Source: a virus. Taken from it: a stretch of 5,751 nt of DNA. The DNA lies in the IMG/VR virus record IMGVR_UViG_3300045988_001841; one strand, 5' to 3'. This document shows positions 2,835 through 3,779 of the stretch, one piece after another; positions within the stretch are counted from its first letter, which is position 1, and the number at the start of each line of letters is the position of its first letter. Under the pieces are notes generated by a model. The model ran no database searches and was not told the DNA's origin. It saw only the letters and a program-made list of their open reading frames with translations. The position numbers were made by a program, and so were the translations under genes.

Positions 2835-2844
2835 CGGTGTCACC

Positions 2845-2878
2845 TAGCCAAGTACCTATCAAGTAAGGTACTTGGCTA
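2845..2878 (+). terminator. Perfect 13-bp stem-loop just after the VP4 stop (transcript 3' end and/or ssDNA structural element)
   Basis: tagccaagtacct (2845-2857) pairs perfectly with aggtacttggcta (2866-2878) around an 8-nt loop. Only TT follows, so the U-tract is weak for a classical terminator. Confidence 0.5.
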
Positions 2879-2920
2879 TTGTCATATAAAAAAACCATGT
2901 ATCAGTCTATTCAGTGAATA

Positions 2921-2946
2921 AAAAAGGGCTGACCTAAAGTCAGCCC
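2921..2946 (-). terminator. Stem-loop with terminator geometry only on the minus strand
   Basis: gggctgac (2926-2933) pairs with gtcagccc (2939-2946) around a 5-nt loop. An A5 run (2921-2925) precedes it on the + strand, so on the - strand the stem is followed by TTTTT. No U-tract follows on the + strand. Confidence 0.35.
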
Positions 2947-2979
2947 CTTGCGTCGCGCCCCAATCTTGGGGCTGCCGCT

Positions 2980-3030
2980 GTGCGCACGCGCGCACGCGCG
3001 CGCAAACGCGCACGCGCGCACGCGCGCATG
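2980..3030. repeat. Alternating purine/pyrimidine tract of about 80% G+C containing an exact 20-nt direct repeat
   Basis: GCGCACGCGCGCACGCGCGC occurs at 2982-3001 and again at 3008-3027. Purine/pyrimidine alternation is perfect over 2980-3004 and over 3006-3030, broken only by the extra A within the AAA at 3004-3006. 41 of 51 bases are G or C. The tract has many GCGC/GCGCGC palindromes and GTGCGCAC at 2980-2987. Confidence 0.9.
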
Positions 3031-3048
3031 ATATTATATAACTTGTTG
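3029..3048 (+). other. AT-rich motif resembling the phiX174 origin nick region (candidate VP4 nick site / DNA unwinding element)
   Basis: tgATATTATATAACttgttg, compared with the phiX174 origin core CAACTTG^ATATTAATAAC as I recall it: TGATATTA is identical, then ATAAC follows after a 1-nt insertion. The phiX-like element AACTTG also occurs at 3040-3045 and 3149-3154. Confidence 0.3.
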
Positions 3049-3076
3049 TAGTCGTAGTAGTAGAGGTAGTGGAAAA

Positions 3077-3243
3077 GTTGAAAAGTACTAAAATTTAGCG
3101 CTAAGACGTAAATAAAAAGCAAAAAACAACGTTGAAAGTTTTGTTGAAAACTTGTTGAGATGTTGAAAGTTCGTCAAAATGACGAAAAGCATTGTGCAAC
3201 TTTATGTTGAAAACCTGTTGAAAGTGTTGAAAGTGTTGAAAAC
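3077..3243 (+). repeat. Iteron array: nine same-orientation copies of GTTGA(A/G)A (consensus tGTTGAAAr)
   Basis: Exact GTTGAAA starts at 3077, 3131, 3143, 3162, 3206, 3217, 3226 and 3235. The variant GTTGAGA starts at 3154. Cluster spacings are 12/11/8 nt and 11/9/9 nt. The two clusters flank the palindrome at 3170-3186. Confidence 0.9.
3170..3186. repeat. Perfect palindrome TTCGTCA-AAA-TGACGAA between the two iteron clusters
   Basis: ttcgtca (3170-3176) is the reverse complement of tgacgaa (3180-3186) with a 3-nt spacer. It could be a dimeric protein binding site or a small hairpin in ssDNA. Confidence 0.7.
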
Positions 3244-3333
3244 GCGCACAGCGCTAAAAAGGAATGGATTTAGCCGAATTCCGCTGCGCTCCATACGGCA
3301 AGGCGCTAAAGCGCCATTCAAACCAAAAAACAA

Positions 3334-3361
3334 TTGACAAGCGACAAAAAAATGATATAAT
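3334..3361 (+). promoter_or_regulatory. Consensus sigma70-type promoter with extended -10
   Basis: TTGACA (3334-3339), a 16-nt spacer, then TGaTATAAT (3353-3361). An A-rich UP-like tract (aaaccaaaaaacaa) lies just upstream. The predicted transcription start near 3368 is followed by the GAGGA ribosome binding site and the peptidase ATG at 3387. Confidence 0.75.
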
Positions 3362-3386: not shown

Positions 3387-3779
3387 ATGAGCATTAAAAG
3401 CTACCTTGTAAATACTGACGGAAACGTAAAACTAGCAAGACACTTCAAAGTAAAAGAATTTGCTTGCAAAGACTTAAGTCCAGTAGTGTTCATAGATGAA
3501 TATCTATGGAACGTGCTGGACATCCTCCGGCATAAACTAAGAAAACCGGTAATAATCACCAGCGGATACAGAACACCAGAGTGGAACACAAAATGCGGCG
3601 GAGCAAAATACAGCTATCATATGCGCGGTATGGCAGCAGACATCCGAGTAAATGGAATGACACCAAAACAAGTAGCCAACATACTGGATGAAATTGTACC
3701 GGATGAATGCGGCATTATCGTATACAAAAGCTGGGTGCACTTTGACGTGCGCAAAAGCAAATACAGAAAAGGAATCTGA
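3387..3779 (+). CDS. Zinc peptidoglycan peptidase, M15 family (M15A/DUF882/Peptidase_M15_3-like), 130 aa; putative lysis or cell-wall-remodelling enzyme
   Basis: GAGGAA (3375-3380) lies 6 nt before ATG 3387. The motifs are FKVKEFACKD, SGYRTPEWN..GGA, and the zinc triad H-x6-D...H: SYHMRGMAAD (His codon 3618, Asp codon 3639) and WVHFD (His codon 3738). The longer ORF-track start at 3264 would place the consensus promoter inside the coding sequence and its SD abuts the ATG. Confidence 0.85.
   Translation: MSIKSYLVNTDGNVKLARHFKVKEFACKDLSPVVFIDEYLWNVLDILRHKLRKPVIITSGYRTPEWNTKCGGAKYSYHMRGMAADIRVNGMTPKQVANILDEIVPDECGIIVYKSWVHFDVRKSKYRKGI

What the first reader, a model, noticed from the sequence alone, without database searches (positions are those of the whole stretch)
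3077..3243. Nine same-strand GTTGA(A/G)A iterons in two helically phased clusters
A given 7-mer is expected about 0.35 times per strand in 5.7 kb. Here eight exact copies plus one single-base variant sit within 167 nt, all in one orientation. Four lie at 3131-3168 (spacing 12/11/8) and four at 3206-3241 (spacing 11/9/9), with one outlier at 3077. I did not spot GTTGAAA elsewhere in the window by eye. Directly repeated sites with roughly one-helical-turn spacing are typical of cooperative binding by a Rep initiator (plasmid or CRESS-virus iterons) or a transcription factor. The array lies between the candidate nick site and the consensus promoter. Iterons have not, to my knowledge, been described for Microviridae.
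Basis: partly seen in the sequence, partly recalled or inferred. Interest (0 to 1): 0.68.

Follow-up and report, generated by a model that had tools for sequence, protein, structure and literature searches.

The report
Host-origin mimic in a microvirus genome
The nine GTTGAAA repeats are real and are best read as binding sites for the host bacterium's own replication starter protein DnaA, inside a conserved 215-base copy of the host chromosome-origin layout, which has apparently not been reported for this family of tiny single-stranded DNA phages and also points to the phage's likely host group.

Summary
There are nine GTTGARA copies, all on the + strand at 3077-3241 and none elsewhere, against about 1.6 expected.

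They are probably not VP4 iterons. The 9-mer TGTTGAAAA matches the DnaA-box consensus TGTGNAWAA at 8 of 9 positions. In 158 related modules the same array positions switch between TGTTGAAAA and perfect DnaA boxes (TGTGGAAAA, TGTGGATAA).

The "outlier" at 3077 is the second of two tandem boxes. These lie 4 nt from a run of TAG triplets (DnaA-trios, 3049-3063), which is preceded by an AT-rich stretch. That is the order, polarity and spacing of the bacterial oriC basal unwinding system.

The dnaA-dnaN origins of Oscillospiraceae, Ruminococcus and Negativibacillus genomes use the same GTTGAAA boxes, next to their own TAG trios and in dense arrays. The phage therefore mimics its probable host's origin.

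The module is kept in relatives whose VP4 is only 39-55% identical. It occurs in either orientation, and as single-stranded DNA it folds no better than shuffled sequence.

Most likely mechanism: DnaA binds the double-stranded replicative form and opens it for replication. This step is inferred, not shown. No paper in the searched library describes it.

The parts
3029..3039 (.). Short AT-rich stretch (TGATATTATAT) on the side of the trios away from the boxes, in the position of a DNA-unwinding element
   Evidence: It is AT-rich in all relatives but variable in sequence (entropy 0.81 bits). Host origins are AT-rich at the same relative position.
3040..3048 (+). Invariant AACTTGTTG between the AT-rich stretch and the trios; phage-specific, function unknown (candidate phage-protein site)
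   Evidence: Entropy is 0.12 bits across 158 unique modules (variants listed). It is absent at this position in host origins.
3049..3063 (+). DnaA-trio-like run TAG-TCG-TAG-TAG-TAG (continues in frame as AGG-TAG to 3069)
   Evidence: Trios 1, 3, 4 and 5 are almost invariant (entropy 0.11 bits). Host dnaA-dnaN origins carry (TAG)2-6 runs at the same place and polarity. The pattern TAGTAGTAG-N0-16-GTKGAWAA occurs once in the window and in 0 of 200 shuffles.
3064..3067 (.). 4-nt spacer (AGGT) between trios and first box; length fixed, sequence free
   Evidence: Entropy is 1.41 bits, the most variable columns of the module, while the 4-nt length is kept. The published BUS description gives a gap of about 4 bp.
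3068..3076 (+). Proximal DnaA box 1: AGTGGAAAA
   Evidence: At this position 76 modules have TGTGGAAAA (a perfect match to TGTGNAWAA), 37 have AGTGGAAAA and 14 have TGTTGAAAA.
3076..3084 (+).
   Evidence: Its variants AGTTGATAA and AGTTGAAAA differ at the W position of the DnaA-box consensus.
3130..3169 (+). Distal box cluster 1: four 9-mers (CGTTGAAAG, TGTTGAAAA, TGTTGAGAT, TGTTGAAAG)
   Evidence: Orthologous sites in relatives include TGTGGAAAA and TGTGGATAA.
3170..3186 (.). Palindrome TTCGTCAAAATGACGAA between the two clusters (role unknown)
   Evidence: It forms a hairpin in the ssDNA fold. Other lineages keep a palindrome here, some with a different sequence.
3205..3242 (+). Distal box cluster 2: four 9-mers (TGTTGAAAA, TGTTGAAAG, TGTTGAAAG, TGTTGAAAA); closely matches the host triple-box element GTTGAAAACTCTGTTGAAAGTGTTGAAAAC
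   Evidence: At the first position of this cluster (3205-3213) 36 of the 158 aligned modules have TGTGGAAAA in place of TGTTGAAAA.
3032..3243 (.). The whole cassette, which is found inverted in some relatives
   Evidence: It is inverted relative to collinear flanks in L013, L021, L025, L026, L027 and L033 and in GenBank MG945447 and MG945388. A wider tally gave 143 direct and 7 inverted.
2970..3028 (.). Flanking (GCGCGCAC)n GC-rich repeat; it stays with the VP4-side flank when the cassette is inverted
3334..3361 (+). Consensus sigma-70-type promoter (TTGACA-16-TGnTATAAT) for the peptidase M15 gene and downstream genes; context only, outside the cassette
   Evidence: 12 of 12 matches; Pfam Peptidase_M15_3 for 3387-3779.

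Best explanation
The repeats are DnaA boxes of the type used by the phage's host. They belong to a roughly 215-bp module (3029-3243) that copies the layout of the host chromosomal origin between dnaA and dnaN. Read on the + strand, the module runs: AT-rich stretch, five TAG 'DnaA-trios', a 4-nt spacer, two tandem boxes, then two distal clusters of four boxes.

Proposed mechanism (inferred):
1. On the double-stranded replicative form, host DnaA-ATP fills the boxes cooperatively.
2. The distal clusters feed DnaA to the proximal pair.
3. The DnaA oligomer extends from the proximal boxes onto the TAG strand and melts the adjacent AT-rich DNA.
4. The open complex is used for replicating the duplex form. 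The most likely use is loading the host replicative helicase and primosome, either for theta-type copying of the replicative form or for complementary-strand priming. A second possibility is exposing single-stranded DNA for the VP4 nuclease.

Shown here: the sequence identity of the elements, their conservation pattern, their equivalence to canonical DnaA boxes, and their match to host origins. Inferred: DnaA binding, unwinding, and what the opening is used for.
For: 1. TGTTGAAAA matches TGTGNAWAA at 8 of 9 positions. The window has 10 such sites within 175 nt.

2. At orthologous array positions in 158 unique related modules, the 9-mers alternate between TGTTGAAAA and the perfect DnaA boxes TGTGGAAAA and TGTGGATAA. 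Position 4 is T 0.81 / G 0.15 / C 0.00 (examples, e.g. L206, L211, L212).

3. The trio run, 4-nt spacer and tandem boxes sit in the polarity described for the origin unwinding system. For C. difficile the order is boxes, GC cluster, CTA repeats on the top strand, then the unwinding element. Reversing boxes 6/7 inactivates B. subtilis incC, and distal boxes there act at a distance.

4. Host genomes show the same layout. In rnpA-dnaA-dnaN-recF loci the dnaA-dnaN spacer carries 4-8 GTTGAAA copies and no perfect canonical box. The box next to the TAG run is itself TGTTGAAA(A/C) (gene identities). Up to 17 boxes lie at mostly 9-12-nt spacing beside the 3' end of dnaA in L140, and the same plan is seen in L118 and L164.

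5. Selection pattern: entropy is 0.28 bits in box cores, 0.11 in trios, 1.41 in the spacer and 0.97 in other columns (Mann-Whitney p = 3e-18).

6. The module is present in all 10 distant GenBank relatives examined and in more than 120 IMG/VR contigs, nearly all 5-6 kb. VP4 identity in these goes down to 39-55%.

7. It occurs in both orientations and has no excess ssDNA structure (z = -0.67). Both facts fit a function on duplex DNA.

8. Host DnaA differs from B. subtilis DnaA in the DNA-recognition helix. This is consistent with a shifted box preference; a precedent in Thermotoga is cited.
Against: - No binding or unwinding data exist; every functional step is inferred from sequence.
- The AT-rich stretch is only about 11-14 nt and is bounded by a GC-rich repeat, so it is a weak unwinding element.
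- The spacer is not GC-rich in the window (AGGT).
- Trio 2 (TCG) lacks the central A.
- Microviruses already have a rolling-circle initiator, so the need for a DnaA-dependent opening is not obvious.
- The host loci were retrieved by searching for the motif itself, so part of the enrichment is circular. The trio-adjacent boxes and the extra copies were not selected for.
- The host assignment rests on motif sharing only.
Confidence: 0.7

Rival explanations
1. The array is a DnaA-box cluster that only binds DnaA and does not open DNA. It might tie the strong downstream promoter (3334-3361) to the host's DnaA-ATP level, or it might soak up DnaA like the E. coli datA locus and disturb host initiation.
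For: The array lies about 90 nt upstream of a 12/12 consensus promoter. In host genomes the same triple-box element also sits upstream of genes such as mraZ and a small conserved ORF, suggesting a regulatory use.
Against: Pure binding would not require the nearly invariant TAG trios, the fixed 4-nt spacing or the AT-rich stretch. The distance to the promoter and the orientation both vary, and inverted cassettes exist.
Confidence: 0.14
2. Phage-specific iterons: the repeats are bound by VP4 (Rep) or by the 75-aa or 40-aa phage proteins.
For: Direct repeats near a presumed rolling-circle origin resemble the iterons of CRESS viruses and plasmids. The small ORFs have no Pfam match, so a DNA-binding role cannot be excluded.
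Against: The motif is unchanged across VP4 identities of 39-97%. It equals the box of bacterial chromosomal origins. It is interchangeable with the canonical DnaA box. The cassette flips relative to VP4 and to the post-VP4 hairpin, and its distance from that hairpin varies from about 70 to 260 nt.
Confidence: 0.04
3. Sites for another host origin-binding regulator, for example Spo0A (0A box TGNCGAA). This would couple phage development to sporulation, as phi29 does. The phi29 analogy is from memory.
For: TGTTGAA is one base from TGTCGAA. Many Oscillospiraceae form spores, and Spo0A sites overlap DnaA boxes in B. subtilis oriC (both points from general knowledge).
Against: Position 4 is never C (frequency 0.00 over about 1500 sites). 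The observed alternative is G, which is the DnaA consensus. The sites occupy the DnaA-box position next to the trios in host origins.
Confidence: 0.05
4. An element that acts on single-stranded DNA or on RNA, such as a complementary-strand origin or a protein-binding repeat in a transcript.
For: All copies lie on one strand. Microviruses need a signal for complementary-strand synthesis.
Against: The module folds no better than shuffled sequence (z = -0.67). The neighbouring 2835-3030 region is highly structured (z = -7.8) and is the better candidate for such a signal. In inverted genomes the gene-sense strand carries the complement. There is no Rfam match.
Confidence: 0.03

Closest known systems
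Bacterial oriC basal unwinding system (BUS): DnaA boxes 6/7, DnaA-trios and an AT-rich element in the B. subtilis / C. difficile dnaA-dnaN region
   Same: The order and polarity match: AT-rich stretch, TAG trios, about 4-bp spacer, then tandem boxes reading TGTGNAWAA on the TAG strand. Further distal box clusters are present. The boxes are tandem with 0-3-bp gaps.
   Different: It sits on a 5.7-kb single-stranded DNA phage rather than beside dnaA on a chromosome. Most boxes are the variant TTTTCAACA. The AT-rich stretch is short and carries an extra invariant AACTTGTTG. The whole unit is an invertible 212-bp cassette.
dnaA-dnaN origins of Oscillospiraceae, Ruminococcus and Negativibacillus genomes (L084, L118, L123, L140, L158, L164, L172, L178)
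   Same: The box motif is the same. The (TAG)n run, 4-9-nt spacer and GTTGAAA / GTGGAAAA arrangement match. The host triple element GTTGAAAACTCTGTTGAAAGTGTTGAAAAC closely matches window 3206-3243.
   Different: Host arrays are longer, with up to 17 boxes, and lack AACTTGTTG. No extended sequence homology beyond the motifs was shown.
DnaA boxes in plasmid and phage origins (P1 oriR, pSC101, F, RK2) and the DnaA-dependent 'ABC primosome' A-site on single-stranded DNA (from memory)
   Same: A mobile element recruits host DnaA to its own origin.
   Different: Those elements combine DnaA boxes with iterons for their own Rep protein, or place a box in a hairpin. Here there are no separate Rep iterons and no hairpin, and there is a full trio element.
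Rep iterons of CRESS-DNA viruses and iteron plasmids
   Same: Same-orientation short repeats near a replication origin, bound cooperatively by an initiator.
   Different: Those iterons are specific to the element's own Rep and co-vary with it. Here the motif is host-type and stays constant while VP4 diverges.
phiX174 primosome assembly site / G4-type complementary-strand origins (from memory)
   Same: An intergenic cis-element through which a microvirus recruits host priming and helicase machinery. This is a possible functional analogy only.
   Different: Those are structured single-strand hairpins recognised by PriA or primase. This module is unstructured and reads as a duplex DnaA site.

Membership tests
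oriC basal unwinding system (BUS) | At least one DnaA box within 2 mismatches of TTATCCACA / TTWTNCACA | tested here: met
   AGTGGAAAA at 3068-3076 has 1 mismatch to TGTGNAWAA, and TGTTGAAAA has 1 mismatch. Most relatives have a perfect TGTGGAAAA at box 1.
oriC basal unwinding system (BUS) | At least 3 DnaA-trios (NAN, preferably 5'-TAG-3') within 16 bp of the box, on the strand where the box reads TGTGGATAA, lying 5' of the box | tested here: met
   TAG-TCG-TAG-TAG-TAG lies 4 nt 5' of box 1 on the + strand. The polarity was checked against the C. difficile description and against eight host origins.
oriC basal unwinding system (BUS) | Short (about 4 bp), usually GC-rich spacer between the trios and the proximal box | tested here: inconclusive
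   The 4-nt length is conserved but the sequence is free (AGGT, GCAA, AGAC, GTAC and others). GC-richness is not consistent.
oriC basal unwinding system (BUS) | AT-rich unwinding element beyond the trios | tested here: inconclusive
   Only 11-14 nt are AT-rich (3029-3042). They are separated from the trios by TTGTTG and bounded by a GC-rich repeat.
oriC basal unwinding system (BUS) | DnaA-ATP binds the boxes and opens the duplex in a trio-dependent way | not testable with these tools
   This needs purified host DnaA with footprinting, P1/KMnO4 probing or strand-separation assays.
oriC basal unwinding system (BUS) | It is the chromosomal origin, located next to dnaA | tested here: not met
   The element is in a circular 5696-nt gokushovirus genome, between VP4 and a peptidase M15 gene. 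It therefore works like a BUS or mimics one but is not a chromosomal oriC.
Rep-specific iterons (CRESS viruses, iteron plasmids) | The repeat sequence is specific to, and co-varies with, the element's own Rep | tested here: not met
   The motif is the same across VP4 identities of 39-97% and is shared with bacterial chromosomal origins.
Rep-specific iterons (CRESS viruses, iteron plasmids) | Fixed position and orientation next to the nick-site hairpin | tested here: not met
   The cassette occurs in both orientations, and its distance from the conserved post-VP4 hairpin varies from about 70 to 260 nt. The nick site itself is not known.
Spo0A 0A-box arrays | Core TGNCGAA with C at position 4 | tested here: not met
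   C frequency at position 4 is 0.00; T is 0.81 and G is 0.15.
Structured single-strand origin or RNA element | Folding energy or conserved pairing beyond chance, or an Rfam match | tested here: not met
   z = -0.67 for 3029-3260. The only Rfam match was a sub-threshold snoRNA hit (17.7 bits against a gathering score of 64) outside the array, at 2907-3043 on the minus strand.

The most novel reading that the evidence does not exclude
A whole group of gut gokushoviruses carries a working, portable, DnaA-dependent origin of the oriC type. Its double-stranded form could then be replicated by the host initiation machinery in step with the cell, like a plasmid or carrier state. Alternatively, DnaA-driven melting could be the step that licenses VP4 rolling-circle initiation. 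If the invariant AACTTGTTG next to the trios is the VP4 site, flipping the cassette would even switch which strand is packaged.
Probability: 0.3. Interest if true: 0.88.

Novelty: new variant of a known kind. Interest (0 to 1): 0.76.

Why it matters
- **Replication model.** Microviruses are textbook rolling-circle phages and are thought to need only their own Rep plus host elongation factors. A conserved mimic of the host chromosomal origin would add a DnaA-dependent step. It also offers a concrete mechanism to test for the long-term persistence of gokushoviruses in the gut.
- **Host prediction.** The hosts of human and animal gut gokushoviruses are, to my knowledge, largely unknown. The shared non-canonical box TTTTCAACA and the shared origin layout point to the Oscillospiraceae / Ruminococcus group.
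- **Host biology.** The host data suggest that this bacterial clade uses a variant DnaA box together with an altered DnaA recognition helix.
- **Annotation.** An invertible origin cassette in a 5.7-kb genome is a compact system for studying how orientation affects origin function.

Tried and rejected
- **Rfam, whole window, permissive threshold:** only a sub-threshold snoRNA chance hit.
- **Promoter and terminator scans:** no promoter inside the array. A TATAAT on the minus strand at 3033-3038 lacks a -35 element and was dropped.
- **ssDNA folding of the module:** no excess structure. The right flank 3240-3335 is also unremarkable (z = -0.94).
- **dif/XerCD-like site at 3020-3046:** considered by eye and rejected, because arm spacing and arm sequence do not fit.
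- **Resemblance of TGATATTATATAAC (3029-3042) to the phiX174 origin:** not conserved in relatives, so treated as coincidence.
- **CtsR and MraZ operators:** considered because of the heptad repeats and the mraZ context. Rejected in favour of DnaA because the motif occupies the box position next to the trios and alternates with canonical boxes.
- **Generic trio-plus-canonical-box scan of viral contigs:** small contigs outside this phage group had single chance matches without arrays.
- **Test for a switch of the packaged strand in inverted genomes:** the skew differences are small. The private-allele spectrum was C>T:G>A 1:6 against 125:106, p = 0.054, on a poor alignment with non-monophyletic inverted genomes. 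Inconclusive.
- **L012, the only near-identical-VP4 contig without the array:** it is flanked by unrelated DNA and has no terminal repeat, so it is probably a chimera or a defective copy.
- **Contact residues of E. coli DnaA domain IV:** could not be verified in the paper library. That point rests on memory.

Full report
**1. The observation**

The window is a complete circular gokushovirus genome of 5696 nt plus a 55-nt terminal redundancy. All genes lie on the + strand. VP1 runs from 4969 across the window ends (the contig's 55-nt terminal overlap) to 921. VP2 is 961-1818 and VP4/Rep is 1815-2834. A 550-nt intergenic region follows, then a peptidase M15 gene (3387-3779), small ORFs and the VP3 scaffold.

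All copies are on the + strand and none lies elsewhere. Shuffles give 1.6 on average, and 0 of 200 reach 9.

**2. The array is conserved, and the block that holds it can be inverted**

Eighty IMG/VR relatives (VP4 90-97% identical) and two GenBank genomes carry the same array with the same internal spacing.

In six of them the segment matching window 3032-3243 is inverted, while both flanks stay collinear with the window. Ten more distant GenBank gokushoviruses (VP4 52-86% identical) all keep the module. Two of these, MG945447 and MG945388, have it inverted. The module of MG945388 belongs to a different sequence type from the other inverted ones, so inversion happened at least twice.

L033 (inverted) and L039 (direct) are 93% identical across VP1-VP2-VP4. 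The cassette is therefore flipped or exchanged independently of the backbone. A wider tally gave 143 direct and 7 inverted.

**3. What the repeat unit is**

Aligning 158 unique modules gives the 9-mer T-G-T-(T 0.81 / G 0.15)-G-A-A-A-(A/G). The DnaA-box consensus, read on the same strand, is TGTGNAWAA, so the repeat differs from it by one base.

At orthologous positions the repeat is replaced by perfect DnaA boxes:
- The first site (3068-3076) is TGTGGAAAA in 76 modules, AGTGGAAAA in 37 (as in the window) and TGTTGAAAA in 14.
- At 3205-3213, the first site of cluster 2, 36 modules have TGTGGAAAA.
- L211 and L212 carry TGTGGATAA, the classic consensus box.
- L206 is built mostly from TGTGGAAAA.
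- Box 2 varies between GTTGAAAA and GTTGATAA, which is exactly the degenerate W position of the DnaA-box consensus.

Position 4 is never C, which argues against Spo0A boxes (TGNCGAA).

**4. The array is part of a larger origin-like module**

Immediately 5' of the first box, all relatives read as follows:
- an AT-rich stretch (TATTATATAAC and variants);
- an invariant TTGTTG;
- five trios, TAG-NNG-TAG-TAG-TAG;
- a 4-nt spacer of free sequence;
- box 1 and box 2.

Column entropies fit separate constrained elements at fixed spacing. Trios score 0.11 bits, box cores 0.28, the 4-nt spacer 1.41 and the remaining columns 0.97 (p = 3e-18 for boxes against the rest).

This is the arrangement published for the oriC basal unwinding system: DnaA box or boxes, a short spacer, at least three trios (3'-GAT-5', which is 5'-TAG-3'), then the unwinding element. 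C. difficile has the same polarity. In B. subtilis the orientation of the proximal boxes is essential, and distal boxes act at a distance. The combined pattern occurs once in the window and never in 200 shuffles.

The two "clusters" are distal box groups.

**5. The same design in host chromosomes**

About 30 of the hits share a near-identical element, GTTGAAAACTCTGTTGAAAGTGTTGAAAAC, which closely matches window 3206-3243. Most of those whose organism titles were displayed come from Oscillospiraceae, Ruminococcus, Negativibacillus and other Clostridia assemblies.

In L084, L123, L158, L172 and L178 this element lies in the dnaA-dnaN spacer. DnaA, DnaN and RecF were confirmed by PDB and Pfam searches. 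On the TAG strand those spacers read:
- L084: (TAG)5-GGGG-TGTTGAAAC-GGTGGAAAA
- L172: TAGTAGTAATATTAATAC-C-TGTTGAAAA
- L178: TAGTATTAATAATAT-GCTC-TGTTGAAAC
- L123: (TAG)6TAA-TGGTTAATT-TGTGAAAAA

They contain 4-8 GTTGAAA copies and no perfect canonical box. This enrichment is partly circular, because the loci were found through the motif.

L118, L140 and L164 show the same plan, with arrays of up to 17 boxes at mostly 9-12-nt spacing. In L140 the array lies beside the 3' end of dnaA. A 23.6-kb viral contig (L237) shows the same plan too.

The host DnaA proteins are genuine DnaA (E = 1e-79 to B. subtilis DnaA) but differ in the recognition helix. B. subtilis has LPKIG...GGRDHTTVIHA. The hosts have YLEIG...GRDHSTMTTS or MAAIG...GGRDHSTVVYA. 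From memory, these positions correspond to base-contacting residues of E. coli DnaA (P423, T435, H439). A shifted box preference would have a precedent in Thermotoga.

**6. What it most likely does**

- The module folds no better than shuffled sequence as single-stranded DNA (z = -0.67).
- The region upstream of it, 2835-3030, is highly structured (z = -7.8). It is the better candidate for single-strand functions such as a nick-site hairpin or a complementary-strand origin.
- Together with orientation independence, this points to a function on the double-stranded replicative form.

The best-supported reading is that host DnaA-ATP binds the ten boxes, oligomerises from the proximal pair onto the TAG strand and opens the AT-rich end. 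The use made of that opening is inferred. It could be helicase and primosome loading for theta-type replication or complementary-strand synthesis. It could also be exposure of DNA for VP4.

A pure binding role, as a promoter control or a DnaA sink, is possible. It does not explain the conserved trios and the fixed spacing.

VP4 iterons are unlikely. The motif is constant while VP4 diverges to 39-55% identity, and it is the host's own origin motif.

**7. Known or new**

GenBank records of relatives annotate only coding features here. The paper library holds no article combining Microviridae with "DnaA box", or gokushovirus with DnaA. The only papers with Microviridae and iteron concern eukaryotic ssDNA viruses or a general ssDNA-virus annotation toolkit rather than Microviridae iterons. 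No paper covers Ruminococcus DnaA boxes.

The components (DnaA boxes, trios) are a known kind. A complete, invertible origin mimic on a microvirus, built from a variant box, is a new variant. Among small viral contigs, arrays of this type were seen only in this phage group.

**8. Caveats**

- Nothing here demonstrates binding or unwinding.
- The AT-rich stretch is short.
- The host assignment is by motif sharing only.
- The role of the invariant AACTTGTTG, of the central palindrome and of the flanking GC repeat is unexplained.
- The attempt to detect a change of packaged strand in inverted genomes was inconclusive.

Noticed in passing
window 3032-3243; L013, L021, L025, L026, L027, L033, L204, L210: The 212-nt block holding the array is inverted in some relatives while both flanks stay collinear. 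At least two independent inversions occurred. L033 (inverted) and L039 (direct) are 93% identical across VP1-VP2-VP4, so the cassette moves or flips independently of the backbone.
   Followed up: yes
window 3040-3048: AACTTGTTG, between the AT-rich stretch and the trios, is nearly invariant in 158 modules (0.12 bits) and absent from host origins. It recalls the CAACTTG at the phiX174 gpA cleavage site (from memory), so it could be a VP4 site. Unexplained.
   Followed up: partly
window 2835-3030: This region is strongly structured as single-stranded DNA (z = -7.8). It has a 13-bp hairpin directly after the VP4 stop (2845-2878, with compensatory changes in relatives), a hairpin at 2956-2972 and a (GCGCGCAC)n alternating purine-pyrimidine repeat at 2970-3028. 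It is a candidate nick-site hairpin and/or complementary-strand origin.
   Followed up: partly
window 2923-2949, minus strand: A hairpin resembling an intrinsic terminator, with a T-run, reads on the minus strand although all genes are on the + strand. It is kept with a compensatory stem change in L027 and is absent from relatives with shorter intergenic regions.
   Followed up: no
window 3170-3186: A palindrome, TTCGTCAAAATGACGAA, sits between the two box clusters. Other lineages keep a palindrome at this place with a different sequence (e.g. TGCACAAA...TTTGTGCA).
   Followed up: no
L145, L173; L090, L099, L127, L194, L197; L148, L192: In Clostridia genomes the triple-box element GTTGAAAACTCTGTTGAAAGTGTTGAAAAC also lies upstream of mraZ. 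It lies upstream of a small conserved ORF (MIKGINKQIIEI..., no Pfam match) as well. It is also found inside the coding linker of mutL. This hints at a DnaA-box regulon, or a second use of the motif, in these bacteria.
   Followed up: partly
L084, L123, L158, L172, L178 (DnaA C-termini): The host DnaA recognition helix differs from that of B. subtilis: P to L/V/A in LPxIG, DHT to DHS, and H to T/L/Y in VIHA. These genomes use TTTTCAACA boxes and have no perfect canonical box in the dnaA-dnaN spacer.
   Followed up: partly
L012 (IMGVR_UViG_3300045988_086966, 8781 nt): VP4 is 94% identical, but the whole intergenic region including the module is missing. The microvirus part (peptidase gene through to the post-VP4 hairpin) is flanked by unrelated GC-rich DNA on one side and AT-rich DNA on the other, and there is no terminal repeat. 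It could be a chimeric assembly or an integrated or defective copy.
   Followed up: partly
whole genomes of inverted versus direct relatives: Inverted genomes have slightly lower GC skew (0.040 against 0.064) and higher AT skew (0.357 against 0.339) on the gene strand. Their private-allele C>T:G>A ratio is 1:6 against 125:106 (p = 0.054). The direction is what a switch of the packaged strand would give, but the data are far too weak to conclude.
   Followed up: partly
L237 (IMGVR_UViG_3300013947_000130, 23.6-kb contig): A much larger viral contig carries the same plan: AT-rich stretch, (TAG)4, 5-nt spacer, tandem GTTGAAAA boxes, then clusters of three boxes. Other mobile elements of the same host group may therefore use this origin type.
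   Followed up: no
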